Shown here one piece after another: positions 6,365 through 28,600 of a stretch of DNA of 41,511 nucleotides (positions are counted from its first letter, which is position 1; each line of letters begins with the position of its first letter). Under the pieces are notes generated by a model. The model ran no database searches and had not been told where the DNA came from. It was given only the letters and a program-made list of their open reading frames with translations. Made by a program: the position numbers and the translations under genes. The stretch lies in the IMG/VR virus record IMGVR_UViG_2802429229_000003. One strand, given 5' to 3'. Source of the stretch: a virus (lineage: Duplodnaviria; Heunggongvirae; Uroviricota; Caudoviricetes).

Positions 6365-6685
6365 CTACACACACTGCTCCTGAAAATACTGGTCATCCAG
6401 TGCAAAGATCACTGCTTCAAATTCATCGCGCTCAATCAATACCGGATGAGTGGCTAAATATTCATTTATCTCTGTCAGAGATAAAGGCAAAGGCACCCCA
6501 GCCATTCCAGCATAACGTCGGGCACGGGATATTACCGAATAGGCGTACAACAACTCCTTAAGCACCGGGTCTATTTCTGGTTCCGGTATCGGTGGCAACC
6601 TGAGTTTTTCTCGCTTCCATCTTGCCTTTTCCCCCCTTTCTCCCCCGAACTCCGATAACCACCGCTGGGCAGCTATGGCTTTTTT
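6365..6685 (-). CDS. Tail assembly chaperone GT, -1 frameshift extension (T part); fusion product continues from G
   Basis: The -1 frame entered at the slippery heptamer stays open to a stop at 6365 and is the frame of the 6365-6598 ORF; no stop codon between the slip site and that ORF. Confidence 0.6.
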   Translation of the reverse strand, partial: KKAIAAQRWLSEFGGERGEKARWKREKLRLPPIPEPEIDPVLKELLYAYSVISRARRYAGMAGVPLPLSLTEINEYLATHPVLIERDEFEAVIFALDDQYFQEQCV

Positions 6686-7134
6686 ATCGTATCCTGCTTC
6701 TGCTGCTCTTTACCCTGGGCGATGCTGGCTGCTTCTGCAAGGATCTGCCAGTACAAATCTGGATTCTGCTTAAGCAGCGCGATCCCTCGTTCTGCCGTAT
6801 ATTCCAGTGCAACCTCAACACCATTAACCAGTTCACCAACCCCTTTCCAGTCTTTCAGCAGATAACGAGCGGCATTATCAATGAGTAAATCATCAACAGA
6901 ATCCACCTCGGAAACCTTTGAAATATCAAACTCCTTCGTTCCGACGTGCAAACTGGCATCCATTTTCTCAATGTGGCGACGGATTAATGCATTACGGGAG
7001 CGATACTGATCGTTATCGCTGCTTGCCACCAACAGTTTTAACCCGTCTACAGGTTTTAAGTCCTTCATTGGCGTAAACCAGCGTTCTCCACCAATGAGAA
7101 TTTTCTGATTAAGAATAAACATCCATAACCTCAT
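6673..7134 (-). CDS. Tail assembly chaperone G (zero-frame product)
   Basis: 153-aa ORF immediately upstream of the tape measure region; ends ...IKKP-stop directly after the slippery heptamer; RBS-like GAGG before ATG at 7122 or 7134. Confidence 0.65.
   Translation of the reverse strand: MRLWMFILNQKILIGGERWFTPMKDLKPVDGLKLLVASSDNDQYRSRNALIRRHIEKMDASLHVGTKEFDISKVSEVDSVDDLLIDNAARYLLKDWKGVGELVNGVEVALEYTAERGIALLKQNPDLYWQILAEAASIAQGKEQQKQDTIKKP
6679..6685 (-). other. Programmed -1 ribosomal frameshift slippery heptamer A-AAA-AAG
   Basis: Minus-strand codons AUA AAA AAG CCA UAG; heptamer A_AAA_AAG three codons before the G stop, the conserved position for tail chaperone frameshifting. Confidence 0.6.
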
Positions 7135-7182
7135 TCAATGCGTCCCCCTGTAGGGCAGTACCACAGGAGGAATAACGGAAAA

Positions 7183-8145: not shown

Positions 8146-8171
8146 AGGAGCCTCCTATGTCATTAATTGCG

Positions 8172-9720: not shown

Positions 9721-9723
9721 GTG

Positions 9724-9900: not shown

Positions 9901-9909
9901 ATGCCCCCC

Positions 9910-9933
9910 ATTAAAAATGGGGCCGAAGCCCCG
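9910..9933 (-). terminator. Intrinsic terminator (GGGGC-UUCG-GCCCC plus U5) directly after the major capsid gene
   Basis: Minus strand reads CGGGGCUUCGGCCCCAUUUUUAAU, 10 nt after the capsid stop; GC stem with UUCG tetraloop and U-run. Confidence 0.6.
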
Positions 9934-9942
9934 TTTGAATGT

Positions 9943-11082
9943 TTAACCAAGAATCAGACAACCATGTGCCGGCTTCACTGATGAAACACCCCATGCCAGT
10001 CCAACTTCATAGCGCACCTGGCGATACTGACGATACAGTGCAATCTGGAACGTAATCCCTGAAATCGGGTCCGTAACATTCATTACATCATCAGCATTAT
10101 CGCCACCTTCCGGCATTGCCGGAGTACGGGATGCCAGCAGAAACGCGTTGCGATCAAACGCCATATTTGCAGTAAAGGCCCCAACAACTGTGATGGCAGT
10201 ATCATCGGCCAGATCCTGACGCAGTCCGGGCGCTGCAAGAGTAATCAGATTGCTGGTCGCTGCTGCCACAACATACTGATTCGGATCACCAGCGAACGTA
10301 ACAATCTGACCTGCAGAAATACTCCCCGAACCAGTATCAATGGAAATAAGAACATCGCCTTCTTTTTTCTCTCCATTCACGAGATAACCAGTTGCAGCAA
10401 CCTTTGGCGCTCGTTTCACACCTGCCGAACTGTGAATATTGAATCCCTCCAGACGCCCCAACACGCCCTCACGCAGTAGCTGTTCAGTGCCGGATTCATT
10501 CACTTTAAACAATACAGACTGTTTTCCGCGCAAATTAGCAATGGCAGTGGAGCCAAGCACCATCTGCAGATCGGTTGTCGGTGCGCCGTTATCCTCCAGA
10601 ACCTGACGAGCCAGAGCAGCATCAGAAAGATCATCTTTAACACCAAACGGCGTTGTCCCTGCGGTTCCCACGGCGCGGGAAGCACCGAAATACAACGCAC
10701 CAAGATCAGCCTCAACCTCGTTTGCAAGGGCGCGAAAAGCCTGCTTGAACTGATCAGCCAGAATGGTGTTGTAAGTCCCTGAAGGGCCAAGAGCCAGTTG
10801 TTCTTCACCATTCCATTTAACCGGTGCCATTTTGGATTTAGTAATTTTTACATCAACAGTGCCAATATTTTGATCACCGGTATTCGGAGCTGACGGCCCC
10901 GGTACGATATCTTCGGTTTTCGCCTCAGGCGCAACTGGCGCGGTTACCGTCTGATCTTTTGCTGCGGCGTCAGCTTTTGCGTTTTTTGCTACCGCAGGGA
11001 TAAAACCTACCTGCTCACGGGATACAACATCCAGGGCGGTATAAATAGTCGGGATCAACCCGGTCAGGGTATTTCCAGCCAT
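9943..11082 (-). CDS. Major capsid protein, about 379 aa
   Basis: ATG at 11082 (MAGNTLTG) preceded by AAGGAA RBS; the track ORF extends further upstream to 11175. Position after the scaffold-like gene. Confidence 0.7.
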   Translation of the reverse strand: MAGNTLTGLIPTIYTALDVVSREQVGFIPAVAKNAKADAAAKDQTVTAPVAPEAKTEDIVPGPSAPNTGDQNIGTVDVKITKSKMAPVKWNGEEQLALGPSGTYNTILADQFKQAFRALANEVEADLGALYFGASRAVGTAGTTPFGVKDDLSDAALARQVLEDNGAPTTDLQMVLGSTAIANLRGKQSVLFKVNESGTEQLLREGVLGRLEGFNIHSSAGVKRAPKVAATGYLVNGEKKEGDVLISIDTGSGSISAGQIVTFAGDPNQYVVAAATSNLITLAAPGLRQDLADDTAITVVGAFTANMAFDRNAFLLASRTPAMPEGGDNADDVMNVTDPISGITFQIALYRQYRQVRYEVGLAWGVSSVKPAHGCLILG

Positions 11083-11180
11083 AATTAAATATTCCTTAAA
11101 AATTTGCGTAATTGTGAATAGATGGAGTAATGAGCTATCCAGCCCTGACACCAGCTCCCATCCGGAAGCTGACAAATGTG

Positions 11181-11945
11181 TTAATCAACGATTGTGATAC
11201 CGTCTTTCAATGCGTTTTGCTTACCTGCAACATCCAGTGCATCAAAAGCAGAGCGTTTCATCGTTTTCTGACCAATATCATGCTGTGTCGGACGGGAGCC
11301 GCCGCCATTGTTGCCACTGGCTTTCAGGATGTAGTCTTTCTGAGGGTAATTTTCGACAAGGAACTCCAGCGCCTCATCAAACTGCGCCAGTTCGCCAGGC
11401 TTCGCGCGGGAATAAATTTTGTTGCCGGAAGCGTCATAAGCAACGATCCTCCCTTCTTCCACTTTGAATGCCTGCCCGAAGCGGGCTTGTAATAAATCTG
11501 CCGGGATCGCAATTTTATCGGCAATATATTTTGAACCCGCAAAACTACCGCCAATCATAGAATCGTAAAGCTGCTTCTCCAGCATCTGAGAGCGTTGCTT
11601 TTCTTCATCTAATTGCTGCTGAAAATTTTTCGTAATTTCTGCCTTAACCTGGTCAACCTGTCCCGCATCGAGCAGCTTTTTCTGGTCGATTTTTGACAGC
11701 ATTTCCAGTGCCTCGATCGCCTTCTTCGGGTCTTCGATAGCGGCAAACTTAGCCAGTTTTTCCTCTGCAGCTTCTTTAGCCAGGCGATGATTTTTTGCCT
11801 CGCCATTAAGCTCTGTAATTTTTTTTGTCGCCAGCGGTGCATCGAAGCCAATTTCTTTACCATCGTCGTGCACATAAACTGGCAGGCCAGCAGTATCAAT
11901 TTCTGCGTATTGTTTTCCGTTAATCTCGACCGTTTTCAGTTTCAT
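11181..11945 (-). CDS. Capsid scaffolding-like protein (charged, coiled-coil rich)
   Basis: ATG at 11945 (MKLKTVEINGK); composition KEAAEEKLAKFAAIEDPKKAIEALE typical of scaffold proteins; position between the F-like gene and the capsid gene. Confidence 0.5.
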   Translation of the reverse strand: MKLKTVEINGKQYAEIDTAGLPVYVHDDGKEIGFDAPLATKKITELNGEAKNHRLAKEAAEEKLAKFAAIEDPKKAIEALEMLSKIDQKKLLDAGQVDQVKAEITKNFQQQLDEEKQRSQMLEKQLYDSMIGGSFAGSKYIADKIAIPADLLQARFGQAFKVEEGRIVAYDASGNKIYSRAKPGELAQFDEALEFLVENYPQKDYILKASGNNGGGSRPTQHDIGQKTMKRSAFDALDVAGKQNALKDGITIVD

Positions 11946-12004
11946 ATTAGTACCTGGTTTAAGTCTTCCGACAGTTACGCTGCTCACCATCCGGATCGCA
12001 GCAA

Positions 12005-12030
12005 TAAAAAAGGCCACCCGAAGGTAGCCT
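12005..12030 (-). terminator. Terminator-like hairpin with UUCG loop and U6 between the F-like head gene and the scaffold gene
   Basis: Minus strand AGGCUACC-UUCG-GGUGGCCU followed by UUUUUUAUU; one mismatch in the stem. Confidence 0.45.
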
Positions 12031-12049
12031 GTTGTAATAAATGATTTAT

Positions 12050-13165
12050 TTAAATCCCTGCTTTTCTGAATACCTGTGCATCACGCTCACGGAGCTGCTT
12101 CAGCGTCAGCCATTCGCCTTTATCGGTGTAAAATTCATCTGGCGACATACCACCATCCCGAATCAGCTTTGCTCGGGTTTCCCCCACAATCTGTTTTTGT
12201 CTGGTGTAAGGCTGACGCAAAAACCATTCCCTGTAGGTTGTATCTCCGGCCACCACGCCATCCATGCTGGCCCGCTCAGCCGGGGAAATATCGCGAACAT
12301 CAATACCCAGTTCCTTCGCTGATTTCAGAATGAACGTTTCCGTTGAGCGGCAGCAGAAATGAATTTTTCCCGGCCCCTGCAAATAAGGCACGCTGTGATC
12401 TACAGGTTTATTATTCAGCGTATATTTGAGGCGATCCCTGATTCGACATTGTGGCGTAGTACGATTATCAAGCGTTGATAACCATTGCTTACCCTTAATC
12501 AAATCATTATTCGCGCTGGCAAAACTCTCACGGGCAGTAGCAGCAAGATGTCCAACCGCTGTTTTTGCAATGCTGGCCGCATTAGCCCGGCTCATCTGCA
12601 ATGCACCATCCTGAAATCCCTTACTGACATGTCCCCGAATTTTTCTTGCGATCTGCTCATTGGTATCCCCCAGCAAAAAACCCTGACGCACTGTATTTGT
12701 TATGCGTCTGAGCCGATCCGCCTCAAGATCTGAGGCCCACTCACTGAGCAGTCGTCCCTGGAATGGTCGCGCCATTGCAGCGGCATAAAGTGCATCAGGA
12801 GAGATACCAACCAGAGGGTGAACATCAGCAACAAAATCAGGTAGCATAGAATCAAACAGACTTAACTGATAACCAGCCTCATAAATTGCCAGCTCGTTCA
12901 GCTCTCCGGAGAGACTGGTAAACATGCTGTTAATAGCAGTGCGGTTAACCTTTCTGACGCTCGCCAGAAGTGACTCCAGGCGCTTAACGGTAAAATTACC
13001 TGGATCGAGGCTGTCCAGTGCTATCAGCAGGCGAGCAGTAAGTTCCGCATCGCTGTCATTCAGTATTTTCACCATTCTGGCAGCCACGCCAGTGCTATAG
13101 CGGGATATCCAGACTGCATGAGCAATTGATTCATCACGCAGCCGTTCATTCACGGTTTGCATCAT
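12050..13165 (-). CDS. Phage head morphogenesis protein (Mu F / SPP1 gp7-like minor head protein)
   Basis: 371-aa ORF directly downstream of and overlapping the portal gene, the conserved position of F-like proteins. Confidence 0.55.
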   Translation of the reverse strand: MMQTVNERLRDESIAHAVWISRYSTGVAARMVKILNDSDAELTARLLIALDSLDPGNFTVKRLESLLASVRKVNRTAINSMFTSLSGELNELAIYEAGYQLSLFDSMLPDFVADVHPLVGISPDALYAAAMARPFQGRLLSEWASDLEADRLRRITNTVRQGFLLGDTNEQIARKIRGHVSKGFQDGALQMSRANAASIAKTAVGHLAATARESFASANNDLIKGKQWLSTLDNRTTPQCRIRDRLKYTLNNKPVDHSVPYLQGPGKIHFCCRSTETFILKSAKELGIDVRDISPAERASMDGVVAGDTTYREWFLRQPYTRQKQIVGETRAKLIRDGGMSPDEFYTDKGEWLTLKQLRERDAQVFRKAGI

Positions 13166-14552
13166 TGATTTCCATCAGCATTACACTCTGATTTTTTAAT
13201 TCATCGATCACTTCCTCTGGACGGGAATCCTGATCGATAAATTTCAACGCCTGCAACACCCGAACCGCATCAATCTGACGTATATCACCGCCCTGACGCA
13301 ATGACTGAACAGCCAGCGCGGAGGATGAGTCAAACACCTGGGCAGATACATCCAGTTCAGTGCGCACATCCACATTGCCACCGCAACTCTCTCCGATCCA
13401 TTCCGCCATTATCTGGAGAATATTATCGAGGGCATCTTCGAGGGAGTTCGCCATTGTATAAAGCGGCGAGTTTTCCTGCATTCGCTCTTCATTAGTCTGA
13501 TCAACAGATTTGGTGGATGTATTTTCAGCACGCAGAAGTTTAGCGCCGGCATGACGCATCTGATTTTCCAGCTTCTCAAGTGATGTTTCGCCAGATTCTA
13601 TCGCTGCGCCACTATGTTCAACATATTCGAGGCCATTTTTTGTTCTGTCCTCAAAAATCGTAGCGGTGGATGCACCAACCGTCAGTTCTTCATTCCTGTC
13701 CAGCCCGTAGGCCACCAGCAATGGAACGCGGGTAACATGAAGAATATTGTCCTGCTCGCTCTGGCTTTGCCAGTGCTTGATATTCAGCAAGCCAAGATTA
13801 AGCAATGGCGGTGTACCACGCATAAATCCTGTTTTCTTCGTGTACAGTGTTACCAGAGGAATATCATCACGGCTGGTATTCCATGACTCATGAAGCGTCC
13901 AGACAGATTCGCCATTAGTGCCTTCGCTACGTCGATAAATTTCAACTCGACGGGGCATAATATGGCGGATCTGCTCCACCTTCTTCTGCCCGAAATCATC
14001 ACCATCAATAATGATGACCTCTTTTATACGCAAATCAGTGAGAACAACTTTCCCTTTTTCAACTTTCGATTTCCATCCAATAACCTGGCGTGGATTCAGC
14101 ATCGTAACGTACGGACGACCACCGGTCGCGTTTTCATCGGCTTTTGTCCGAATCTCTTTCATATCCGTTCGTGGATAGTCCACCAGCGCATGTGCCACAC
14201 CATACTGAAATGCGAGGCTGAAAAATTGCTGCGCCCACACATCCAGTCGGCTCCCCTCCATGTCGATATTTTCTGCATATTCCCTGATTTTTGCCGGCGT
14301 TTCCTCACTCAATACTGTCGGCTCTGCAAATATGCGCCCAATATTTTGCTTGATGCTTTCTTCATACACAGGAAGTAGCGTAGCCACAGACAGGCGTTTT
14401 TTATAAGCGTCTTCATCTTCGTTAGGCCATTTTGGGAGATAATTTTCCCCCTGCCTGCGCATTTCAAGCGTACCGCCCATCAGTGCGTCGTTAATATCCC
14501 ACGCCTCCAGCATATCGTTATAGTCGAGGTTGGGTGTTGATATATCAGCCAT
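13146..14552 (-). CDS. Portal protein, 468 aa
   Basis: Size and position immediately after the large terminase gene. Confidence 0.7.
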   Translation of the reverse strand: MADISTPNLDYNDMLEAWDINDALMGGTLEMRRQGENYLPKWPNEDEDAYKKRLSVATLLPVYEESIKQNIGRIFAEPTVLSEETPAKIREYAENIDMEGSRLDVWAQQFFSLAFQYGVAHALVDYPRTDMKEIRTKADENATGGRPYVTMLNPRQVIGWKSKVEKGKVVLTDLRIKEVIIIDGDDFGQKKVEQIRHIMPRRVEIYRRSEGTNGESVWTLHESWNTSRDDIPLVTLYTKKTGFMRGTPPLLNLGLLNIKHWQSQSEQDNILHVTRVPLLVAYGLDRNEELTVGASTATIFEDRTKNGLEYVEHSGAAIESGETSLEKLENQMRHAGAKLLRAENTSTKSVDQTNEERMQENSPLYTMANSLEDALDNILQIMAEWIGESCGGNVDVRTELDVSAQVFDSSSALAVQSLRQGGDIRQIDAVRVLQALKFIDQDSRPEEVIDELKNQSVMLMEINDANRE

Positions 14553-14554
14553 AA

Positions 14555-15865
14555 TTAAATCCGAAGTGATGTGACTCTTCCGGTCGGTTTGACAATAGGG
14601 AATTGCTTAACGATGAAATAACCTCCGGCATCATTCGGGTGATCATTGCCAGATTTTTTATCAGGCTCCCCCTTCTCATCCCAGACCTGTTGCTCCAGAG
14701 ATTCGGCATATAACGGGCAACGCTTCACATTAACTTTATAGCGACGCTCACCATTGGCATTGCAGAACATTGCATTCATTGAGTTAACGCGATCTTTTAC
14801 TGGCGGGTTCGAGCTGTTCACCACAACGTTAAAACCAGCCTGCTTAAGCTGGGCTATATCCGTCGTACTTGCGTTACTTGATTTTCTGGAATCCCCGGAA
14901 GCATCTGGATAAATATAAATTTCCCTCACTTTCCGGTAATCATTCCCATCATACAGCCAGAAGCGTTCTTTAATGATGCGGATCATATCCGGCGTATCGT
15001 AGGCATTGATGATTTCAGTTACCGCACATGGAAGCCCCAAACGCAGCACATGGACGATTCCCGCCATCTTTCCAACGTTAAAATCCATCCCAATATAAAT
15101 CGGCTCCCCTGGCTGCTCCACTTCTTCGCAATTATTCAGTTTCCGGTCAAACTGATGGTAAACAGTACCACTTGTCAGGTTAGTAAACTGTCCTCGAAGA
15201 TAGGCTTTAATCAGCTCTGGAGGGTATGATTCAAGAAGCGAAGGAATGTAATCTGCTGGCAGGTTCTTTTCATTATCGAAAGTAGATGCCTGCACCAGAC
15301 CATACAGTGAGGCCAGCTCTGTTTTTTCACGCACGGCTTTAACAAACTGCTCGTAGACAAATTTGAATCCTTCCGGCGTGGTTGTAACGTCAATACCGTT
15401 GCGAAGTCCATCAATCTTATAACGCATACGTGCAATTATCTTGCGCCACGCCGTTCTGGCTTTTTCCTTCGGCAAAATGTCCAGTTCATCCACCAACGCA
15501 TTACCAATTTTGAAACCGACGATCGTTTGTGGCTTCTCCATCGATCTGCAGATAGTGGTTCCCCGATACTGGCGTCCGTAATAAAAGTGAACCTCTTTAT
15601 TTCCCTCATTAATTTTTACGTTCAATCCCCAGTCAGCAGCAACTTCTTCCACTGTAGGGTAAAAAATATCGCGAATTTGGGGATACGTTGGCGCAAAATA
15701 TCCCTGATTTATACCTGGATGCTCCCAAATCCCCTTGCATATGCCGCCACACCCAACCCATGTTTTGCCCGAGCCAAAACCAGCAATATAGGCTTTAAAT
15801 TTATGGGGCATTGAAAGAAATCGCGCCTGAGGCACATTAAGCGTCGGAGAGATCATCTTCATCAC
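14555..15865 (-). CDS. Terminase large subunit
   Basis: Walker A motif AGFGSGKT near the N-terminus; 436 aa; position between small terminase and portal. Confidence 0.8.
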   Translation of the reverse strand: MMKMISPTLNVPQARFLSMPHKFKAYIAGFGSGKTWVGCGGICKGIWEHPGINQGYFAPTYPQIRDIFYPTVEEVAADWGLNVKINEGNKEVHFYYGRQYRGTTICRSMEKPQTIVGFKIGNALVDELDILPKEKARTAWRKIIARMRYKIDGLRNGIDVTTTPEGFKFVYEQFVKAVREKTELASLYGLVQASTFDNEKNLPADYIPSLLESYPPELIKAYLRGQFTNLTSGTVYHQFDRKLNNCEEVEQPGEPIYIGMDFNVGKMAGIVHVLRLGLPCAVTEIINAYDTPDMIRIIKERFWLYDGNDYRKVREIYIYPDASGDSRKSSNASTTDIAQLKQAGFNVVVNSSNPPVKDRVNSMNAMFCNANGERRYKVNVKRCPLYAESLEQQVWDEKGEPDKKSGNDHPNDAGGYFIVKQFPIVKPTGRVTSLRI

Positions 15866-16931
15866 TCCTTACTCTGGCATCAACCACATTAATATTGATC
15901 GCCACAGGCTGGGGATGTTCATTATCTTCCACCGTTTCGATCTCTTTGCGCAGCTTCTGGTTTTCCATTCTGCGCCGTTCAATTTCCAGTTCCTGTAGCC
16001 GTTTATCTGCACATAAAGCCCCGCCAGCAGAAAACAAACGCAACAATTCACGCCGGGCGGCAGCCTTATCCTCCAGCAGGATCTCAACGCCGAATTTTCC
16101 GAATTTTGCCCCTGCATATAATTGCCGCGCATCCCCATCAAGCAGAGTGGTATCAGCCATATAAAGCTGTCCCGTTCCCTCACCGCAGCACTTCGGGCAG
16201 TCCGGATTGGGTATGGCGTTATCAACAAAGCCGAGGCCTCCATATTCCGGTTCGGGTTTGCCATCTCTGGAAGCCTGCGCCGCTGCCTTGTCGAATTCTG
16301 CTATATCGCGCCACTGGTAGAGATGATTCTCGCCCCAGCAATAACGGCAGTTAACACGGCGAAATTGTGCAAGCTGATTGGGGTCGGCCAGGACAATAGC
16401 CATCAACTGACTCACTAGTAAATCCAGGTCTGCGGTATAGCGTTTCTGGTACTGATTGCGGAAGTAGCTGATAGCGCGAAAAACCCTGGCATTTCTAAGC
16501 ATACGACTGGCGTTGCTGTTAGCTGTCGCACCTTGCCCCTCATAACCGGCTAGTCGGTACGCCTCTGTCGGCTTTTTACCCTGAGCAACAAGCATCGCAA
16601 ACTTAGCCTGCTGGTCAGAAATGCCGAATTCATCGGGACAGAACGAAAATTCCTCCGCGTCGCCCTCATTCAGGCCCGCATCGAATACTGGCTTTTTTTC
16701 CTGAGATTTTTCGTTCCGCTTTTGTGCAGTCTGCGCAGATTTTTTCTGCGCACTTTTTTGCGCAGTTTTGCACATTTCTGTCTGCGCATTTTTCGGAGTT
16801 TTTTTGATGTAACGACGGGCTGTTGCGTAATTCAGTCCCCTTGCTTCACACCATGCCACCGGAGATATACCGGAGCGGGTGTATTCAGCAATATACTCCT
16901 GCTGCAACGCCCCCCAGTCCGGTCTGCTCAT
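15837..16931 (-). CDS. Terminase small subunit (N-terminal HTH plus terminase small-subunit region)
   Basis: HTH-like ISPVAWCEARGLNYATARRYI and motif KFAMLVAQGKKPTEAYRLAGY...ASRMLRNARV; overlaps the large terminase start. Confidence 0.65.
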   Translation of the reverse strand: MSRPDWGALQQEYIAEYTRSGISPVAWCEARGLNYATARRYIKKTPKNAQTEMCKTAQKSAQKKSAQTAQKRNEKSQEKKPVFDAGLNEGDAEEFSFCPDEFGISDQQAKFAMLVAQGKKPTEAYRLAGYEGQGATANSNASRMLRNARVFRAISYFRNQYQKRYTADLDLLVSQLMAIVLADPNQLAQFRRVNCRYCWGENHLYQWRDIAEFDKAAAQASRDGKPEPEYGGLGFVDNAIPNPDCPKCCGEGTGQLYMADTTLLDGDARQLYAGAKFGKFGVEILLEDKAAARRELLRLFSAGGALCADKRLQELEIERRRMENQKLRKEIETVEDNEHPQPVAININVVDARVRSDEDDLSDA

Positions 16932-16934
16932 CAG

Positions 16935-17186
16935 TTAGTCCTGATTTTTATCCACCCTGAGTAGTTCGCGCAGAGCAAAGGCATCCCCTTTTCTGGCAAG
17001 CTTAAACAATGCCGCTCGTAACTCGGCTTCACCTTTCGCTCTGCCCTTACGGATGGCCGCATAAAAATCTGTCATTGCTTCCCGATTTTCTTTCAGTCGG
17101 TTCAGATCAACATCCAGAACGTCAGCGATTTGTTGTGCAGTCATCCGGCACGCTGCCAGAGACTCGACTTTCGAATACGGAATCAT
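16935..17186 (-). CDS. Hypothetical small protein upstream of the small terminase gene (69-83 aa depending on start)
   Basis: ORF with possible starts at 17186 (GGGGGTGA RBS) or 17144; no recognised motif. Confidence 0.4.
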   Translation of the reverse strand: MIPYSKVESLAACRMTAQQIADVLDVDLNRLKENREAMTDFYAAIRKGRAKGEAELRAALFKLARKGDAFALRELLRVDKNQD

Positions 17187-18054
17187 TTGTCACCCCCATT
17201 GATATGCAGGGTGTCTTCTTCCTGTATTTTTCGTGAAGGATTTTTACTGCAGCGTTGTTCCAGGTGACCTGATGGTGAATGCGTTTATGGCTGGCACCCA
17301 TCAGTGAGATTTTTACGCACGACGGCGCATACATGACGGAGTAAAAACTTTTAACGTAGGTTCCGGAATCCAGATACAGCTCGGTCATTCCGCCGCTGTT
17401 TTTCTGCGTCTGTTTCTGCCCTAACTGGACAGCACCGATCGTCATAAACAATTCACCACAGCGACCGAGATTCGTGTACGTATTCACATCCTCGTTAATG
17501 CGCCCCATGAATGAGAACGGTCGATCAACCGAACAGATAAAGCTGTTCATTGCCTTGCGTTTCACCCACGAAGCATGGCCGCCATTGTCACCAAGAAAAT
17601 CCCCGCCCTGCGACATAGCGATGGAAAGAGCAGGTATTGATTCGTAGTACGCCAGCATTTCAGAAAGGATCGCATCCAGTTTCCTTATCGGAAAATAGGC
17701 CTGGTCATAGTTGCGATCCACCCGAAACTGGAACTCGTGATAATCATCATCGAGCTGAATGAAGTATTTACACCCGACCAGTTTTGCCAGGTCGAAACAG
17801 GCATTACGGGCGTAAAAAATTGAGCGGCGGTCACAGAAATTATCGGCTTCGTCAAAACGACTGGCGATATCGGCTTTGGAAAACACCAGCACCTGTTCAC
17901 CAAATTCAGCCATGTACTGATGCCGTGTCTTATCTTCATCATCAACAACGATAAAAATTTTCCCGGTATAGCCAGCACGACGCAACGTCCGGTAAGTCAG
18001 AACTTTGTCCGGTCGCCCGTGAGTCAGAATAAAGGCGCAAAAATCATCACGCAT
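17122..18054 (-). CDS. Hypothetical protein with glycosyltransferase GT-A-like motif pattern, 310 aa (function uncertain)
   Basis: ATG at 18054 after GGAGGAGG RBS, overlapping the ParB-like stop (ATGCGTGA). Motif series AFILTHGRPD, KIFIVVDDED and YFIQLDDDYHEF parallels the beta1 / DxD pattern of GT-A transferases such as SpsA. Confidence 0.55.
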   Translation of the reverse strand: MRDDFCAFILTHGRPDKVLTYRTLRRAGYTGKIFIVVDDEDKTRHQYMAEFGEQVLVFSKADIASRFDEADNFCDRRSIFYARNACFDLAKLVGCKYFIQLDDDYHEFQFRVDRNYDQAYFPIRKLDAILSEMLAYYESIPALSIAMSQGGDFLGDNGGHASWVKRKAMNSFICSVDRPFSFMGRINEDVNTYTNLGRCGELFMTIGAVQLGQKQTQKNSGGMTELYLDSGTYVKSFYSVMYAPSCVKISLMGASHKRIHHQVTWNNAAVKILHEKYRKKTPCISMGVTNDSVFESRVSGSVPDDCTTNR

Positions 18055-18838
18055 ATTCCTCCTCCTCACCACCATGCATGATCTCCACCATGCGCTGCGT
18101 CATCCGGACAAATCCATTTTCAATAGCCTGCTGATAATCAATGATCACCAGCGCCGACTCCTCGAAAAAACACTGAATTTCAGAGGGGGCGTGAGCGTAA
18201 TAGTCCGCAATTCTGCTGAAATTAAACACCGTGTGACGTTCTGCCGCACACAGGAGGAATTTCTCAATATCAGGCTCAAGGGACGCCGAACGTATCCGGC
18301 TGATCAGCTCCTGAGTTTTCGTATCGTCGTACAGTTCACTGATATCCGGTTTACCGCCCGACGGCTCATAAACAGGCGTATCAATTTTCGTCGTATACGG
18401 CTCCTCCTCATTTCCTGTACCGGGCAAAACATCCGTCAACAGTTCATCAATTTCTGTCGGGATGAAGCCTGTCAGGGAGACATCAAAATCAGCATTGATT
18501 AGGTCCGACAGCTCCATCCGCAACAGATCTTCATCCCAGCCAGCATTCATCGGCAGGCGATTATCTGCCAGGCGGTACGCCTTTTTCTGCTCATCCGTCA
18601 GGCCAGACAGAACAATGACCGGAACAGAATCCATTTTGAGCATTTCAGCCGCCATAACACGACCGTGACCCGCAATAATTTCGCCCTTTTCGTCAATCAG
18701 CACCGGATTAGTCCAGCCGAATTGCTTAATACTTTCTACCAGTTGTGCCACCTGCTCAGTACTGTGCGTCCTGGCGTTGTGCGCATACGGTGACAATTCT
18801 TGTAATGGGCGATAGACTATCTTTAATTTCTCGCTCAT
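18047..18838 (-). CDS. ynaK: ParB-like nuclease domain protein (YnaK-like), 263 aa
   Basis: N-terminal region YRPLQELSPYAHNARTHSTEQVAQLVESIKQFGWTNPVLIDEKGEIIAGHGRVMAA has the ParB / sulfiredoxin GxGR signature; position matches ynaK next to trkG in Rac as I recall. Confidence 0.7.
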   Translation of the reverse strand: MSEKLKIVYRPLQELSPYAHNARTHSTEQVAQLVESIKQFGWTNPVLIDEKGEIIAGHGRVMAAEMLKMDSVPVIVLSGLTDEQKKAYRLADNRLPMNAGWDEDLLRMELSDLINADFDVSLTGFIPTEIDELLTDVLPGTGNEEEPYTTKIDTPVYEPSGGKPDISELYDDTKTQELISRIRSASLEPDIEKFLLCAAERHTVFNFSRIADYYAHAPSEIQCFFEESALVIIDYQQAIENGFVRMTQRMVEIMHGGEEEEYA

Positions 18839-18975
18839 ACAGCCTTGCTTTATGAATAAAACGCACCCCAGCAGCCAGTGCTACTGGGGACGGAGGTGTT
18901 GCTGGTAAAGTTAGGTATTGGATCAATGAGTGAGTCAACATAATATTAAACTCACAATTATAAATCAGCCATATA

Positions 18976-20433
18976 TTAGGAGCGCCAAAAAAAACCTGAA
19001 AACAATATAATAACAGGATAAATTTCAAGGCGACCAAGAATCATAGCTATGCACATTAAACATTTTGCAATGTCATTAAGTACTCCGAATGACGATGCAG
19101 TAGCCCCAAAACCTAATCCCATATTATTAATACATGCAGCCACTGTTGCAAATGATGTAAGAAAATCATATCCCATACCATTTAACACCAGTATAAAAAA
19201 CACCGTAAAGAGAGTATAAAGAAAAAAGAAACTCCATACAGACCTCATTACACGATCTGTAACTATCTTCCCTCCTACATTTACACTCAACAACGCTCTG
19301 GGATGAGAAAGCTGATTTATCTCGTGTTTGCTTTGTTTGAAAAGTATAAGAAATCGAAGTGACTTAATTCCACCACAAGTTGAACCTATACATCCCCCAA
19401 AGAAACTTGACAACAGCAAAAATACTATCGTGTGCGTGGGCCAACTTGCATAATCCTGCGTAGCTAAACCATTATCAGTGAGCATGGAGCTGGCAAGAAA
19501 AAACGAATGAATAAAACTTCCATGCAAGTCATACATACCTATATGCCAGACCTGGAAAGAGGTAACAATGATCACCCCTAAGGCTATTAACAGAAAGAAA
19601 CGAAGTTCAATATCTCTGATTAAAGGTTTTATCGTTTTCCTGCTAATAACAATATACCAAAGAGTGAAGTTGAAAGCCGATAGCAGGGAAAAAGAACCAG
19701 CCACCAGCTCAACCAAATAGTTATTAAAATATCCGATACTCTCGCTATGAGTTGAGAAACCACCAAGCGAAACTGTGGAAATCCCGTGACAAATAGCATC
19801 AAACAAAGGCATTCCTGCAAGTCTATAACAGACAATACAAGCAATACCTAATAAAGAATAAGTTATCCACAGTGTCCGTGACGTATCGGCCAGGCGGGGA
19901 GTGAGTTTGTCATCCTTAAATGGCCCCGGCATTTCTGACTGATAAAGCTTTGCACCACCAATACCCAATAATGGCAATACAGCAACCGCCAGAACAATAA
20001 CTCCTAAACCACCTATAAAATTTAACTGTGACCGATAGTACAAATATGCCCGAGGTAATGAACTAACATCATCAATTACAGTTGCTCCTGTTGTTGTTAT
20101 TCCAGAAACCCCTTCAAACAGAGCATCAATGAACGTTAAATTAAGTTCTGAGTCAATCCATAAAGGGAATGCACTAATAACAGAAAACAAAATCCAAAAC
20201 ATTACAATTATAATAAACCCATCACGGGTACGTAATTGAATGCCAGATTTCTTAGTTGTATACCACGCTCCGCCACCAATGCAAAAAAATATAACGAAAG
20301 TTATAAAGAAAACGAACAGGCTTTTTTCTTTATAAAACAATGCTACAACCATTGGTGGCAACATTGAAAGACTATAGAGCCAAACCAGGAACCCACACAT
20401 ATGAGTAACAACTCTTACATGAGATGTATTCAT
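18976..20433 (-). CDS. trkG: Trk system potassium uptake protein TrkG (Rac prophage moron), 485 aa
   Basis: Polytopic membrane protein with repeated GGxK and Gly-rich pore-loop motifs; sequence from MNTSHVRVVTHMCGF matches my recollection of TrkG. AT-rich relative to flanking phage genes. Confidence 0.85.
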   Translation of the reverse strand: MNTSHVRVVTHMCGFLVWLYSLSMLPPMVVALFYKEKSLFVFFITFVIFFCIGGGAWYTTKKSGIQLRTRDGFIIIVMFWILFSVISAFPLWIDSELNLTFIDALFEGVSGITTTGATVIDDVSSLPRAYLYYRSQLNFIGGLGVIVLAVAVLPLLGIGGAKLYQSEMPGPFKDDKLTPRLADTSRTLWITYSLLGIACIVCYRLAGMPLFDAICHGISTVSLGGFSTHSESIGYFNNYLVELVAGSFSLLSAFNFTLWYIVISRKTIKPLIRDIELRFFLLIALGVIIVTSFQVWHIGMYDLHGSFIHSFFLASSMLTDNGLATQDYASWPTHTIVFLLLSSFFGGCIGSTCGGIKSLRFLILFKQSKHEINQLSHPRALLSVNVGGKIVTDRVMRSVWSFFFLYTLFTVFFILVLNGMGYDFLTSFATVAACINNMGLGFGATASSFGVLNDIAKCLMCIAMILGRLEIYPVIILFSGFFWRS

Positions 20434-20570
20434 ATCTAAATATTCTTTCAATTATAACCACCTTGCTGCAATATTATGATTATACTGTATAAAATTTAAC
20501 TCCTCTTAGATCTTACTTCACTGTTCCTTATGAAACAATCATCAAAATGAATCATATTGTAGTTAAGATT

Positions 20571-25693: not shown

Positions 25694-28600
25694 CTATGTA
25701 TCTGAGCCAAACATAGAGCGCCGCCTTGTTATTTTATAATAAGTGGGATTTTCATTATCCACCTCAAAATCAGAGAAGAAGTGGTTATCTCTTAATGCTG
25801 TTAATAAACTTTGATTAGTTGAATCAACTTCAATTTTAGGTTTGCCTCGCCCCAAAATTTTACTGAACTCCGATAAACCAAGCAGATCAAGATACTCTTT
25901 GCAAGTCGTCTTACTCAAATCCTTACCCGGCAACAAAGCGATTAGCAGTGCTATTTTATTCTGCATATTCAGTCCCTCTGCGACAAACAGGTTTTTTAGT
26001 AACGGTTCAGAAACATCATTAGGACTTGCTATCAATGCTGATATATCCTGTATTGCTCGACTCAAGATGAGCGACTGAGTAGAGGTTCCCCAAGTTTTAT
26101 AAGATGACGTCAAGATTAGAAGTTCATCTGGTTTAAAATTATTTTCTAAAATATAGTCATTAACGACCTGAGAGTAATTCTTACTATAAATAGCCAACGG
26201 AGTTTTAACAAACTCGAGTAGCTTAACTTTCAAATCATCATCAACTTTCCAAGAAAGTATTGATATAGCCTCATCCAAAATAAAGTTATCAATCGTCATT
26301 AATTCAACGTATGCCCTGATATTCTTATGAATATAATAGGAAAGTTGCTCTGAATAGTTATCTCGTATGAAATTAAGTGGCGCAACATTCATACGAATAA
26401 TATTTTTATCCACTAATATTTTGAACTTATCACTCGCGATATTACTAGCGCTAAAGGATGTTTTACAAATAATATTTAGTGAGCAAATTAATTTTTCATA
26501 TTTATCATTTGATAAATCATTACAGATAACAATCGATTTAAATAATTTACCTTTAAGCTCGTTATCAATATTAATATTTTGAAAATTCAGGTCTACATCA
26601 GTTCTATTGATAAATTCGATAAGTGAGTCATCCAGTCCATCAACATGTTCAAAATAAGAGACAATATTTTCCTCAGAGCACACTGCTCTATCTTTATCCA
26701 ACAAAGATGACCATAAAGATTCGCTCTCAACCTCACTCAGAGATGTCACGAAAGTTTGCAAAGCGTTTATATACTGGCCTTTTTGTTCATCAGATATTCC
26801 CTCATTATTAAGAACGGATAAAACAATGGATTCATCATCCACGATTGAACCATCACAACTAGATAAAACCATATCCAGATAGTCCCTAATATGGTTATTA
26901 ACATAACTAGCCAAGGGAGAATCAGGTTGTGACATCACTAGTGTATAGTTCTTATGGCGAATATCATCTTCACTATTAAGCGTGTAAACCTTACTCAGCA
27001 TTAAGGTCAGGTTGGAAAAATTAATATCATAAAGTGAATGCTGGTAAACCGCATCAAAGAGTACTTTATTTGCGTTTTCAAATTTAATACTGACAAAAGA
27101 GACGTTAAGCAACTTAAAACCACTAATTAATTTGTCAACCTTCGGTTCTGATATTGCTAAATAACCTGCCGAATCAGAGATGTAATCAGTCAGACAATCA
27201 TCAATATTAATGGCCTCGATGGCGTCATTGGCAGAATAATAAAACGTGCCTATAGAGTAGAGTTTAACCCAATCAGCAGAAAATTCACTCTCTGTCAGCG
27301 CATAAGAAAAAAACTCAGGCCACTGTGTATTTAATCGATTAATGAAGACAGGCTGAGCCCTCTCAGTTTCAAAGTAACCACGAATAAACTCAACTCTTCT
27401 ATCTTTTCTTAGTTGTTTGAATAAACGTTTTATTAAGTTTACCTGGGCTGGCGTTTGAAGCAGATAAGCTAATAAATCAAAATTAAGCGCCTCTTCCTGT
27501 TCAAAATCCACTTCTCGAAGGCGGGCAACGACCAGCTTGGGGTTCTTGAGTTGATAAGTGAACTCTTTGCCTTTTTGATCGGTAATGCTGCGTAAAAACA
27601 TCTTATCAATTCGACTCAGGCTATTTTCATAAAAATAGGTCATATAGTCGGTATAGGTTTCATCAATATAACCATCACGAATAAGGTATTTAAGCAAGTC
27701 AAAATACTCACTGCTTTTTATTTCATTAAAGTCTCTTTCCTCTCCAATTTCATTGGTATAGGTGAGTTTAAATATTTCATCAATGTTTTCTCTAGTTATT
27801 ACTTCTTTAAGTCTTTTGTTTCTAAAATCAACCAAACTTTCTCTTGATCTTGATATAAGCTCATTAATTTCTTCTATTTTACCATTAAATTTATTTTCAA
27901 CACTTTCTTTTCTAGCCGCCCTTCTCTTTGCTATATCAGCTTTCTCAGCCTGATTATAGTGAGGATGATTATTATATCTAGATAATTCCTTATCGTATAT
28001 AGCATCAACCTCCTGACTAGAGTTGAGTATTTCATCATTGATTGCCTCAATCTCTTTTTTTCTATCTCTAATATCTTTTTCTATTTTCTTTATTTCTTCA
28101 ATAATAAGGTTGTCTTTTTCACTAAATATGGTATAAACCATACCTTGATTAAGTTGCAACTCACTAAAATCTCTTGGGAAAATATTCTTATAGGCAATAA
28201 TGGCCAACATTTTATTACAGTCAAGTTCTGTCGTGTTTAATTTGTTATAATAAATTTGAAATTCGTTATAAATATTCTTCAATATTCTCATATCATCAAT
28301 ATATAAAGACATCCCTTGTAGAAATCTTTCATTGAACAACTTGAGAATACCACCACCATCAAAATGTGTGATAAACTGATCGTAAGAGTTAGAACTATCA
28401 ACAACAGGAATAACTGGAATGATATAATCAAAGAATTTGGTTCTATCCTTCGAAATGAAGATATCATCACGAAGCAAGTAAATAAAACGTAACGTCGATT
28501 TCTTGTGCCCTGCTGTGTCCCGTTGAATATTAACCAGTCTGTTAACCTCATGAAGACGTTCAAAGATGTTATTACTATTAAAACGGTCCATGTCTTCAAA

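What the first reader, a model, noticed from the sequence alone, without database searches (positions are those of the whole stretch)
17122..18838. Translationally coupled ParB-like nuclease-domain protein plus glycosyltransferase-like protein between trkG and the terminase genes
The two genes overlap by 8 nt (ATGCGTGA) with a GGAGGAGG RBS inside the upstream coding region, so they are likely co-translated. The first has a ParB / sulfiredoxin-type N-terminal domain. The second carries the motif series AFILTHGRPD, KIFIVVDDED and YFIQLDDDYHEF, which parallels the first beta strand and DxD metal site of GT-A nucleotide-sugar transferases. In K-12 Rac I recall ynaK followed by the ydaY pseudogene at this position, so this may be the intact ancestral pair. 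A ParB-like protein coupled to a putative transferase next to the packaging genes suggests a DNA or virion modification function, but this is inference.
Basis: partly seen in the sequence, partly recalled or inferred. Interest (0 to 1): 0.55.

Follow-up and report, generated by a model that had tools for sequence, protein, structure and literature searches.

The report
ParB-partnered phage DNA glycosyltransferase pair
Two overlapping late genes of an intact Rac-type E. coli prophage encode a ParB-like protein and a sugar transferase that are found together in viruses of bacteria and archaea; they probably add sugars to phage DNA before packaging, yet these phages lack the enzyme that normally makes the attachment point for the sugar.

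Summary
On the minus strand, a 263-aa ParB/Srx-domain protein (18838..18047) overlaps by 8 nt (ATGCGTGA, with a GAGGAGGAGG Shine-Dalgarno) a 310-aa protein (18054..17122). The second protein is a clear member of Pfam TAGT (TET-associated glycosyltransferase, GT-A fold, invariant DDD). The window is an intact Rac-family prophage. K-12 ynaK is the truncated ParB-like gene, but ydaY is not a remnant of the transferase: an 11.6-kb deletion joins ynaK to a tail gene.

The pair is a self-contained module. Across 157 loci from many bacterial phyla and a haloarchaeal virus, the transferase is almost always preceded by this partner, usually with an 8- or 11-nt overlap. It mostly lies just upstream of unrelated terminases. 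The constant partner element is an undescribed C-terminal domain, which also occurs alone.

No TET/JBP dioxygenase or hydroxymethylase accompanies the pair. The ParB part matches the phage ParBs recently shown to activate thymine dioxygenases on dsDNA. Best reading (about 0.5): a ParB-assisted DNA glycosyltransferase acting before packaging, with an unknown acceptor. It is a new variant of a known kind and is directly testable in E. coli.

The parts
18047..18838 (-). ParB-like partner gene (263 aa; the intact form of K-12 ynaK). Layout: ParB/Srx NTP-binding domain, two helices, a disordered linker, then a conserved C-terminal domain.
18539..18838 (-). ParB/Srx nucleotide-binding domain (res 1-100), with N21-A-R23, S36, G57-H-G-R60 and D92-N93.
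   Evidence: Aligned to Noc/ParB, QPR matches NAR and GERR matches GHGR. These residues are 87-93% conserved over 119 unique partners, a count that includes sequences lacking the domain. The best PADLOC and PHROG matches are the N-terminal module of DNA methyltransferases.
18359..18403 (-). Invariant linear motif EPYTTKIDTPVYEPS (Y148, P155 and Y157 are 98-100% conserved) in a region predicted to be disordered.
   Evidence: pLDDT is below 50 for res 137-170.
18050..18436 (-). C-terminal domain ('C-dom', res 135-263). It is the element always found with the transferase and is undescribed in Pfam and PDB.
   Evidence: 1190 representative proteins carry it, always at the C-terminus or as a standalone protein. 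It occurs as a standalone ORF upstream of TAGT in several loci and in Vibrio phage pv27. 80 of 80 C-dom loci carry TAGT. No Pfam or PDB relative was found.
18047..18067 (-). Coupling junction: Shine-Dalgarno GAGGAGGAGG (18067..18058), TAGT start ATG (18054..18052) and partner stop TGA (18049..18047).
   Evidence: The same 8- or 11-nt overlap occurs in 56 of 72 pairs elsewhere.
17122..18054 (-). TAGT-family GT-A glycosyltransferase (310 aa; RefSeq WP_001204028.1 'GREB1-related protein').
   Evidence: Pfam PF20691, 122.3 bits against a cut-off of 27.5. phrog_842 E 6e-104. AF2 model pTM 0.68 with GT-A matches. RefSeq name.
17743..17751 (-). DDD (D102-D104), the DxD nucleotide-sugar and metal site.
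   Evidence: 99-100% conserved in 148 unique homologues. Translation checked. It follows strand 97-102 in the model.
18866..18889 (-). Intrinsic terminator of the low-GC trkG moron, 28 nt before the ParB-like start. The pair has no promoter-like site of its own above chance.
16935..17186 (-). Small downstream ORF (RefSeq start 17144, 69 aa) that overlaps the 3' end of TAGT. It resembles part of a terminase small subunit and is followed by terS (15837..16931) and terL.

Best explanation
The two genes encode the two subunits of a DNA-directed glycosyltransferase made late in the lytic cycle.

Shown:
- The downstream protein is a TAGT-family GT-A enzyme with an intact DDD nucleotide-sugar/metal site.
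- The upstream protein has a ParB/Srx NTP-binding domain, a disordered linker with an invariant YTxKIxxPxYEP motif, and an undescribed C-terminal domain.
- The genes are translationally coupled and found together in nearly every locus examined.
- The C-terminal domain alone can serve as the partner.

Inferred:
- The C-terminal domain and motif dock onto the transferase at about 1:1.
- The ParB domain dimerises in an NTP-dependent way and holds or presents double-stranded DNA to the enzyme, as phage ParB176 does for its thymine dioxygenase.
- The transferase moves a sugar from a UDP-sugar onto phage DNA just before the adjacent terminase packages it, shielding the DNA from nucleases in the next host.

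Unknown: the acceptor atom. No hydroxymethyl-pyrimidine pathway is present.
For: 1. Family. Pfam TAGT at 122 bits, GT-A fold, and invariant R14, DDD and N187/D189. These match the R...DDD...ED motifs of phage DNA GT-A enzymes (10.1101/2023.12.21.572611). The T6 second glucosyltransferase is also TAGT (PMC13390438).
2. Partner. The ParB domain has the same layout (NBD, helix pair, unstructured linker, CTD, no HTH) and the same substitutions (Q to N21, E to H58, E to D92, arginine of ENLQR lost) as the 5mYOX-activating phage ParBs. Its closest profile matches are the N-terminal modules of DNA methyltransferases (phrog_498 E 9e-51; PADLOC MTase_II E 1.5e-38).
3. Obligate pairing. The partner is directly upstream in 67 of 72 loci, and in 3 more with a TAGT paralogue in between. 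80 of 80 loci found from the C-dom side carry TAGT. 56 of 72 pairs overlap by 8 or 11 nt.
4. DNA-handling context whatever the host. A large terminase of at least 4 unrelated families lies at +1 or +2 in at least 38 loci. Where the ParB domain is missing, the pair lies between DNA polymerase A and a beta-clamp, or between primase and helicase.
5. Universal acceptor implied. Identity is 39-57% from E. coli to Firmicutes, Bacteroidota and a haloarchaeal virus, whose structural genes are unrelated.
6. Purifying selection. pN is 0.13-0.24 against saturated pS.
7. Sugar-nucleotide genes follow the pair in some loci, for example UDP-glucose dehydrogenase and an epimerase.
8. The idea that ParB directs modification enzymes to DNA at packaging was proposed earlier (PMC8256090).
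Against: - Every characterised TAGT enzyme transfers to a hydroxyl (5hmC, 5hmU, a sugar, Ser/Thr). Canonical DNA offers none.
- No TET/JBP or hydroxymethylase is annotated in this prophage or in the complete phage genomes phi jlb1 and c5. None recurs near the pair. Those family tables list only the 25 commonest families, so single occurrences could be missed.
- The partner is very acidic (pI about 4.5) and has no recognisable DNA-binding domain.
- In the 5mYOX system, NTP-site mutants of ParB176 still worked, so the NTP step is uncertain.
- Both AF2 models are only moderate (pLDDT 62-65) and no complex was modelled.
- About half of the E. coli genomes that carry this region have it truncated, so it is dispensable for the lysogen.
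- No experimental data exist for any member.
Confidence: 0.5

Rival explanations
1. The transferase glycosylates a protein, not DNA. The most likely target is its own partner, on the invariant Tyr/Thr of the disordered YTxKIxxPxYEP motif (as glycogenin does to itself). Another possibility is a universal host protein, as the animal TAGT relative GREB1 O-GlcNAcylates the oestrogen receptor.
For: An invariant short motif with Y148, T149 and Y157 lies in a predicted disordered linker. GREB1 is a TAGT-family protein glycosyltransferase (PMC7968844). Glycogenin is among the fold matches. This reading removes the problem of the missing DNA acceptor. The partner is acidic and has no DNA-binding domain.
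Against: The partner's ParB domain is the subtype tied to DNA-modifying enzymes. The gene context is always DNA replication or packaging. Glycogenin-type matches are generic GT-A hits with E around 1e-3. A conserved disordered motif is equally well explained as a docking peptide. Known viral and bacterial TAGT members act on DNA.
Confidence: 0.15
2. The enzyme still needs hydroxymethyl-pyrimidine DNA. The pair would then be an orphan of the 5mYOX-ParB-GT pathway. It would be inert on Rac DNA, or would act on 5hmC or 5hmU DNA supplied in trans, for example by a superinfecting T-even phage (a prophage exclusion or interference function).
For: TAGT is defined by its association with TET/JBP. GTs, ParBs and terminases are the commonest neighbours of phage 5mYOX genes. 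Lund et al. raise the idea of prophage GTs that modify invading genomes. The region is often deleted in E. coli.
Against: The pair is kept without a 5mYOX in hundreds of lineages, including virulent phage c5 and an archaeal virus. It has invariant catalytic residues and is under strong purifying selection. It sits in the late operon behind a terminator with no promoter of its own, so a lysogen is unlikely to express it for defence. PADLOC has no defence model for TAGT. Phage GT-A enzymes acting on 5hmC were active without a ParB partner.
Confidence: 0.13
3. The pair is a packaging accessory. The ParB-like protein would be an NTP-regulated nuclease or nickase, or a pac/cos-site factor, that helps the adjacent terminase. 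The transferase would have an unrelated role, for example on a small molecule or a nucleotide.
For: The pair lies directly upstream of terS/terL in most loci, and directly after cos in phage c5. ParB/Srx domains have been reported as nonspecific nickases and NTPases (PMC5512222).
Against: The terminases downstream belong to unrelated families, so a specific protein partner is unlikely. When the ParB domain is absent the pair moves to replication modules, not packaging modules. The invariant partner element is the C-dom bound to TAGT, not the ParB domain. There is no HNH or other nuclease motif.
Confidence: 0.08

Closest known systems
ParB-dependent phage thymine dioxygenases (ParB176/5mYOX176; O'Toole et al., PNAS 2026, PMC13229309)
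   Same: A phage ParB-like protein with an NTP-binding domain, helix pair, unstructured linker and C-terminal domain, and no HTH. It has the same active-site substitutions (Q to N, E to H/D, third-motif Arg lost). It is encoded next to a DNA-modifying enzyme and often near a terminase. Both of its domains are needed to activate the enzyme on dsDNA.
   Different: Here the partner enzyme is a glycosyltransferase, not a dioxygenase, and no 5mYOX is present. The C-terminal domain here is highly conserved across phyla and can be a separate protein. I could not compare it directly with ParB176 because no sequence was available.
TET/JBP-associated GT-A glycosyltransferases of phage 5hmC hypermodification clusters (Pfam TAGT PF20691; Burke 2021, Lund 2023)
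   Same: Same Pfam family, GT-A fold and R...DDD...ED catalytic motifs.
   Different: Those enzymes sit beside a C5-methyltransferase plus TET, or a thymidylate-synthase-like hydroxymethylase, and were active without ParB. This subfamily has an obligate C-dom partner and no enzyme that makes a precursor.
T2/T6 beta-glucosyl-HMC-alpha-glucosyltransferase (the label of phrog_842)
   Same: It belongs to the TAGT family. This protein scores E 6e-104 against the PHROG that carries that name.
   Different: tblastn finds T4-like Aeromonas phage homologues at only 22-24% identity, and does not find T2/T6 at E<=1e-3. Rac has no HMC DNA and no alpha-GT, so the label carried over by phage annotators is a misnomer here.
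ParB-N / DNA methyltransferase fusion proteins of prophages
   Same: The ParB domain here matches their N-terminal module better than it matches partition ParBs (phrog_498 E 9e-51; PADLOC MTase_II E 1.5e-38). Such fusions are enriched in prophages (PMC12704722).
   Different: There is no methyltransferase domain here. The modifying enzyme is a separate, translationally coupled polypeptide of another class.
Chromosome and plasmid partition ParB/Noc/KorB CTPase clamps
   Same: ParB/Srx fold with a GxxR box II.
   Different: No HTH DNA-binding domain and no ParA. TIGR00180 scores 38 bits against a cut-off of 58. The protein is acidic and the gene is in the late phage operon.
GREB1 (animal TAGT-domain protein O-GlcNAc transferase)
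   Same: It shares the TAGT catalytic domain. RefSeq names this protein 'GREB1-related'.
   Different: GREB1 is a large eukaryotic protein that acts on a nuclear receptor. It has no ParB partner.

Membership tests
Pfam TAGT (PF20691), GT-A glycosyltransferases | Profile match above the curated threshold | tested here: met
   122.3 bits against a cut-off of 27.5, res 8-222 covering profile positions 4-205 of 205.
Pfam TAGT (PF20691), GT-A glycosyltransferases | GT-A Rossmann-like fold | tested here: met
   The AF2 model (pTM 0.68) matches GT-A enzymes in PDB (6p61, SpsA, K4CP, glycogenin; E 2e-4 to 1e-3). It also matches viral TAGT-domain proteins (E 5e-21). The C-terminal third of the model is low confidence.
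Pfam TAGT (PF20691), GT-A glycosyltransferases | DxD nucleotide-sugar/metal motif and the R...DDD...ED triad | tested here: met
   R14 98%, D102-D104 99-100%, N187 99% and D189 100% conserved in 148 unique homologues. Motif series as given.
Pfam TAGT (PF20691), GT-A glycosyltransferases | Genomic association with a TET/JBP dioxygenase or other hydroxymethyl-pyrimidine source | tested here: not met
   None is annotated in the whole prophage or in phi jlb1 and c5. PF12851 is absent from the neighbour gene tables and from the commonest neighbour families (only the top 25 families are listed).
Pfam TAGT (PF20691), GT-A glycosyltransferases | Sugar transfer to DNA | not testable with these tools
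   Needs LC-MS of DNA or an in vitro transfer assay.
ParB/Srx superfamily (PF02195) | Profile match, fold and box II arginine | tested here: met
Partition ParB (ParABS) | HTH DNA-binding domain, ParA partner, TIGR00180 equivalence | tested here: not met
   No HTH domain was found. TIGR00180 scores 38.1 against a cut-off of 58.45. No parA is annotated in the prophage.
ParB-activated phage DNA-modifying enzymes (5mYOX-ParB type) | ParB with NBD, helix pair, unstructured linker and CTD, and no DNA-binding domain | tested here: met
   AF2: NBD 1-95, helices 103-134, pLDDT below 50 for res 137-170, helical CTD 172-255. Compared with the description.
ParB-activated phage DNA-modifying enzymes (5mYOX-ParB type) | Signature NBD substitutions (Q52 to N, E93 to D/H, R130 not conserved) | tested here: met
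   N21, H58, D92-N93 and P96 in the alignment to Noc/ParB. N21-to-S36 spacing is +15, as N14-to-S29 is in ParB176.
ParB-activated phage DNA-modifying enzymes (5mYOX-ParB type) | Adjacent 5mYOX (PF12851) as the activated enzyme | tested here: not met
   The adjacent enzyme is TAGT. No 5mYOX was found.
ParB-activated phage DNA-modifying enzymes (5mYOX-ParB type) | Partner dependence of enzyme activity on dsDNA | not testable with these tools
   Only co-occurrence and coupling could be measured.
T-even beta-glucosyl-HMC-alpha-glucosyltransferase | HMC-containing genome with an alpha-glucosyl-HMC acceptor | tested here: not met
   No dCMP hydroxymethylase or alpha-GT in the prophage. Identity to T4-like homologues is only 22-24%.
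ParB-N / DNA methyltransferase fusions | Methyltransferase domain in the same polypeptide | tested here: not met
   Only the N-terminal 140 residues match (phrog_498 positions 31-171 of 633; PADLOC MTase_II 13-151 of 436).

The most novel reading that the evidence does not exclude
The pair installs a sugar directly on ordinary DNA (a canonical base, the backbone or an end) without any hydroxymethyl-pyrimidine precursor. The ParB/C-dom subunit would supply the DNA opening or acceptor activation that a lone GT-A cannot. This would be a previously unknown kind of DNA modification, made by a two-gene module present in tailed viruses of both Bacteria and Archaea and in about one in six complete E. 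coli genomes.
Probability: 0.25. Interest if true: 0.85.

Novelty: new variant of a known kind. Interest (0 to 1): 0.6.

Why it matters
Phage DNA glycosylation is known only where a hydroxymethyl-pyrimidine has first been made. Lund et al. reported that about 65% of metagenomic phage GT contigs lack any such neighbour, and left their function open.

This locus gives that orphan class a defined anatomy: a TAGT enzyme plus an obligate partner that carries an undescribed domain and, usually, a ParB NTP-binding domain. It also places the class in a genetically tractable E. coli prophage.

If the acceptor is DNA, ParB-assisted DNA modification extends from oxidation to glycosylation, and possibly to a new base chemistry. 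That would bear on restriction and CRISPR evasion, on sequencing of phage DNA and on enzyme tools.

On the practical side, the work corrects three annotations: 'beta-glucosyl-HMC-alpha-glucosyltransferase', 'chromosome partitioning protein', and RefSeq's 'ynaK pseudogene' call on an intact gene.

Tried and rejected
- Partition ParB was rejected: no HTH, no ParA, and TIGR00180 is below its cut-off.
- A defence-system component was rejected: PADLOC has no hit for TAGT, and the only hit for the partner is the ParB module of a methyltransferase model.
- I looked for a hidden 5mYOX or hydroxymethylase in the whole prophage annotation, in three distant contigs with Pfam tables, in genes at -4..-2 and +1..+2 of 77 genome loci, in 146 neighbour clusters of 80 viral loci and in two complete phage genomes. 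None was found.
- A search for C-dom/TAGT fusion proteins among the best 150 of 1190 representatives found none.
- A direct comparison with ParB176 was not possible: no sequences are held in the papers' supplements.
- Iyer et al. 2013 could not be retrieved, so its ParB proposal is cited second-hand.
- The afdb50 fold library was unavailable.
- The first viral scan returned almost only near-identical Rac prophages and was uninformative for diversity.
- The radical SAM neighbour has no specific NCBIfam assignment.
- Literature searches found no functional study of ynaK or of a ParB-TAGT pair.
Full report
**What is in the sequence**

The finding's coordinates hold two minus-strand ORFs.
- The first is 18838..18047 and encodes 263 aa.
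- The second starts at the ATG 18054..18052 (MRDDF...) and ends at 17122, giving 310 aa.
- The stop of the first gene and the start of the second share ATGCGTGA (18054..18047).
- A purine run GAGGAGGAGG (18067..18058), which also encodes the acidic tail EEEE of the first protein, sits 3 nt before the ATG.
- An in-frame ATG seven codons upstream (18075) is used neither by any homologue (alignment A1) nor by RefSeq.

**Where the window comes from**

The window is an intact Rac-family prophage of E. coli, integrated next to ttcA. Its gene order is intR, xisR, ralR, recT, recE, kilR, sieB, a replication region, a lysis cassette, trkG, the pair, terS, terL, portal, head and tail genes.
- The 2.1-kb region matches 1610 of 5426 complete E. 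coli genomes; 867 carry at least 80% of it.
- It also matches ten deposited phage records at 99% identity or more.
- trkG is a low-GC moron (33-41% against about 49% for the pair).
- trkG has its own strong terminator at 18889..18866, 28 nt before the first gene. No promoter-like site above chance precedes the pair. Expression therefore most likely depends on late-operon read-through (inference).

**The K-12 comparison**

blastn of the K-12 region against the window shows that K-12 joins window 18585 directly to 7024. That is an 11,560-bp deletion.
- ynaK (87 aa) is therefore the first ~85 codons of the ParB-like gene.
- ydaY corresponds to the window ORF 6673..7134, which lies between the tail tube and tape-measure genes in intact prophages.

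**The second protein**

- It matches Pfam TAGT (TET-associated glycosyltransferase, PF20691) at 122.3 bits against a cut-off of 27.5, over the full profile.
- It matches phrog_842 at E 6e-104.
- RefSeq calls it either 'hypothetical' or 'GREB1-related protein'.
- An AF2 model built from 15 homologues (pTM 0.68; confident for residues 1-150, poor beyond about residue 185) matches GT-A enzymes in PDB. It matches viral TAGT-domain proteins best (E 5e-21).
- Over 148 unique homologues, R14, D38, D41, D68, R83, D102-D104, N187, D189, R258 and H260-H261 are 95-100% conserved. This includes the R...DDD...ED series described for phage DNA GT-A enzymes.
- No member of the family has a solved structure detectable by sequence.

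**The first protein**

It is not a partition ParB:
- no HTH domain was found;
- TIGR00180 scores 38 bits against a cut-off of 58;
- no ParA is annotated in the prophage;
- its pI is about 4.5.

Its closest profile matches are the N-terminal ParB modules of DNA methyltransferases (phrog_498 E 9e-51; PADLOC MTase_II E 1.5e-38).

Aligned to Noc/ParB, QPR becomes N21-A-R23, GERR becomes G57-H58-G59-R60, and ENLQR becomes D92-N93-R-L-P. These are the substitutions reported for the phage ParBs that activate thymine dioxygenases: Q52 to N, E93 to D/H, E126 to D, R130 lost. The N-to-S spacing is also the same as in ParB176.

The model's layout also matches the description of ParB176: NBD 1-95, two helices 103-134, a low-confidence stretch 137-170, and a helical C-terminal domain.

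**The C-terminal half is the new element**

- Residues about 145-255 are highly conserved from E. coli to Firmicutes, Bacteroidota and Planctomycetota (alignments A2 and A6).
- The segment starts with an invariant motif, Y-T-x-K-I-x-x-P-x-Y-E-P, inside the predicted disordered stretch.
- It continues with AAxRHxVFNF...IAxYYA...Q.LxExSALVIID...AI.NG.
- Y148, Y157, R201, A211, Y214, Q222, E226, L230, D234, A238 and G242 are invariant in 119 unique sequences.
- It has no Pfam family and no PDB relative.
- phmmer against 1.84 billion representatives finds 1190 proteins (1001 at E<=1e-10). The domain is always at the C-terminus of proteins of about 250-300 aa, or forms a standalone protein of 130-195 aa.

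**Co-occurrence**

Starting from TAGT. A scan of one genome per species returned 77 loci across many phyla, at 39-100% identity.
- The partner is the gene directly upstream on the same strand in 67 of the 72 loci that have an upstream gene.
- In three more, a TAGT paralogue sits between the two.
- The stop and start overlap by 8 nt in 23 pairs and by 11 nt in 33 pairs, out of 72.

Starting from the C-terminal domain. A scan of viral contigs returned 80 loci, all of which carry TAGT on the same strand.
- 67 are adjacent by a strict criterion. Most of the rest reflect ORF-start calling or a reversed or duplicated arrangement.
- 69 partners have the ParB domain and 11 do not.

Standalone C-terminal domains directly upstream of TAGT occur in L098, L114, L119, L121, L132, L145, L157 and L161. 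They also occur in the 191-kb Vibrio phage pv27 (E 3.9e-50). Some loci have two domain-transferase units or two transferases in tandem.

Cultured viruses with the pair include:
- Lactobacillus gasseri phage phi jlb1;
- L. delbrueckii phages c5, LL-Ku, phiLdb and Ld17;
- Nocardia phage NTR1;
- Porphyromonas phages;
- the haloarchaeal virus HHTV-2 (gp21/gp22, 42.7% identity, 11-nt overlap).

Both genes are under purifying selection: pN is 0.13-0.16 for TAGT and 0.24 for the partner, against saturated pS of about 0.8.

**Neighbourhood**

- Downstream. The genes at +1 and +2 are dominated by terminase subunits of unrelated families: Terminase_6N 19, Terminase_3 12, GpA 4, TerL_ATPase 3, plus small subunits of three families.
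- Upstream. The genes are a heterogeneous tail of replication, recombination or lysis modules.
- Without the ParB domain. The pair then lies in a replication module: between DNA polymerase A and a DnaN-like clamp in L119, L121 and L145, and between primase/exonuclease and helicase in pv27.
- Sugar-nucleotide genes. Some loci add UDP-glucose dehydrogenase, an epimerase or an NTP-transferase.
- Radical SAM. In 22 of 80 viral loci, mostly from anaerobic Firmicutes, an unassigned radical SAM enzyme follows the transferases. This gene is absent from the window.
- Dioxygenase or hydroxymethylase. No TET/JBP dioxygenase, thymidylate-synthase-like hydroxymethylase or consistent C5-methyltransferase accompanies the pair. 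The evidence is the whole prophage, three contigs with per-gene Pfam tables, the family tallies (top 25 families only) and two complete phage genomes.

**How it most likely works**

Four lines point to DNA as the target.
1. Characterised viral and kinetoplastid TAGT-type enzymes act on DNA.
2. The partner's ParB domain is the subtype attached to DNA methyltransferases. It is also the subtype shown to be required for a thymine dioxygenase to act on double-stranded DNA.
3. The context is always DNA packaging or replication.
4. The enzyme is 40-57% identical across hosts whose virion and host proteins are unrelated, so the acceptor must be universal.

I therefore read the pair as a two-subunit DNA glycosyltransferase. 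The C-terminal domain and its linear motif dock the enzyme. Translational coupling sets the stoichiometry. The ParB domain dimerises and clamps, or opens, dsDNA in an NTP-dependent way. The sugar is added post-replicatively, just before packaging.

This agrees with the earlier proposal that ParB proteins direct modification machinery to DNA at packaging (cited in PMC8256090).

Only the family assignments, the anatomy, the coupling and the co-occurrence are shown. Docking, NTP dependence, DNA as acceptor and the protective role are inference.

**The weak point**

The acceptor is the weak point. Known TAGT enzymes need a hydroxyl, and ordinary DNA has none. Either this subfamily uses a different acceptor on DNA (the novel case, about 0.25), or the target is a protein such as the partner's own invariant Tyr/Thr motif (rival 1), or hydroxymethylated DNA from elsewhere (rival 2).

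Further cautions:
- the partner is acidic and lacks a DNA-binding domain;
- NTP-site mutants of ParB176 remained active;
- both structure models are moderate;
- no complex could be modelled.

**Comparison with the literature**

- The ParB-CTPase survey of 2025 lists ParB fusions to methyltransferases and DUFs in prophages, but does not mention glycosyltransferases.
- Lund et al. note ParB-like genes and terminases near phage GTs. They report that about 65% of GT contigs lack a base-modification neighbour and leave their role open.
- O'Toole et al. establish ParB dependence only for dioxygenases.
- I found no functional work on ynaK or on this pair.

The pair is therefore a new variant of a known kind: a ParB-assisted DNA-modifying enzyme and a member of the TAGT family. 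What has not been described is its obligate partner domain and its independence from a precursor pathway.

Noticed in passing
window 18047-18838 (minus); L001 10156-10939: RefSeq/PGAP annotates only the first 258 nt of this intact 263-aa ORF, as 'ynaK, incomplete, missing C-terminus' (pseudogene), in several complete genomes. About 526 nt of intact coding sequence are left unannotated. This looks like an artefact of using the truncated K-12 YnaK as the reference protein.
   Followed up: partly
window 7025-18584: K-12 Rac lacks exactly this 11,560-bp block: the C-terminal two-thirds of the ParB-like gene, TAGT, terS, terL, portal, head genes and most tail-shaft genes. The deletion fuses ynaK to ydaY, the remnant of ORF 6673..7134.
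   Followed up: yes
window about 18340-18350 (codons 163-166 of the ParB-like gene): Several E. coli variants (P0193, P0198, P0208, P0210) are identical up to ...YEPSGGKPD. They then continue into out-of-frame TAGT, out-of-frame terS or foreign sequence. These are independent deletions or insertions that share one breakpoint. P0121 has a 50-aa internal tandem duplication. The cause of the hotspot is unexplained.
   Followed up: partly
window 18976-20451 and 18866-18889 (minus): trkG is a low-GC (33-41%) moron inserted between the lysis cassette and the late genes. It has its own strong intrinsic terminator 28 nt before the ParB-like start codon.
   Followed up: partly
L119, L121, L145; L166 (Vibrio phage pv27) 4459-5888: Where the partner is only the C-terminal domain (no ParB domain), the pair lies between DNA polymerase A and a DnaN-like sliding clamp, or between primase/exonuclease and helicase. 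A different DNA clamp may stand in for the ParB domain.
   Followed up: partly
L188 6969-7925; L140 7830-8816; L156 7840-8796 and 22 of 80 viral loci: An unassigned radical SAM enzyme (about 320 aa, below all NCBIfam cut-offs) directly follows the transferases in phages of anaerobic Firmicutes. It could be an oxygen-independent route to an acceptor or a sugar-tailoring step. It is absent from the window.
   Followed up: partly
L140, L141, L165, L171, L173, L188, L215; L145, L157: Tandem TAGT paralogues (partner, TAGT-b, TAGT-a) or duplicated domain-transferase units are common. This suggests stepwise addition of more than one sugar.
   Followed up: no
window 16935-17186 (minus): A small ORF (69 aa in RefSeq) overlaps the TAGT 3' end by 23 nt. 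It matches only the middle of a terminase small-subunit PHROG (phrog_309, E 8e-23), ahead of the 364-aa terS. The window's TAGT has a 21-aa C-terminal extension that homologues lack and that covers this overlap.
   Followed up: no
window 25694-29326 (minus): A 1210-aa YobI-family P-loop NTPase sits in the early region of this prophage and is absent from many close relatives. It is probably a defence-type cargo gene.
   Followed up: no
L169 (phage phi jlb1) 11350-12746: A 1.4-kb stretch with no annotated gene lies directly upstream of the ParB-like gene in phi jlb1.
   Followed up: no
phage records: PHROG-based annotation spreads the name 'beta-glucosyl-HMC-alpha-glucosyltransferase' to this subfamily in phages. 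Complete annotations were checked for phi jlb1 and c5, and they show no HMC pathway. HHTV-2 carries the same label, but only a 10.8-kb flank of it was inspected.
   Followed up: yes
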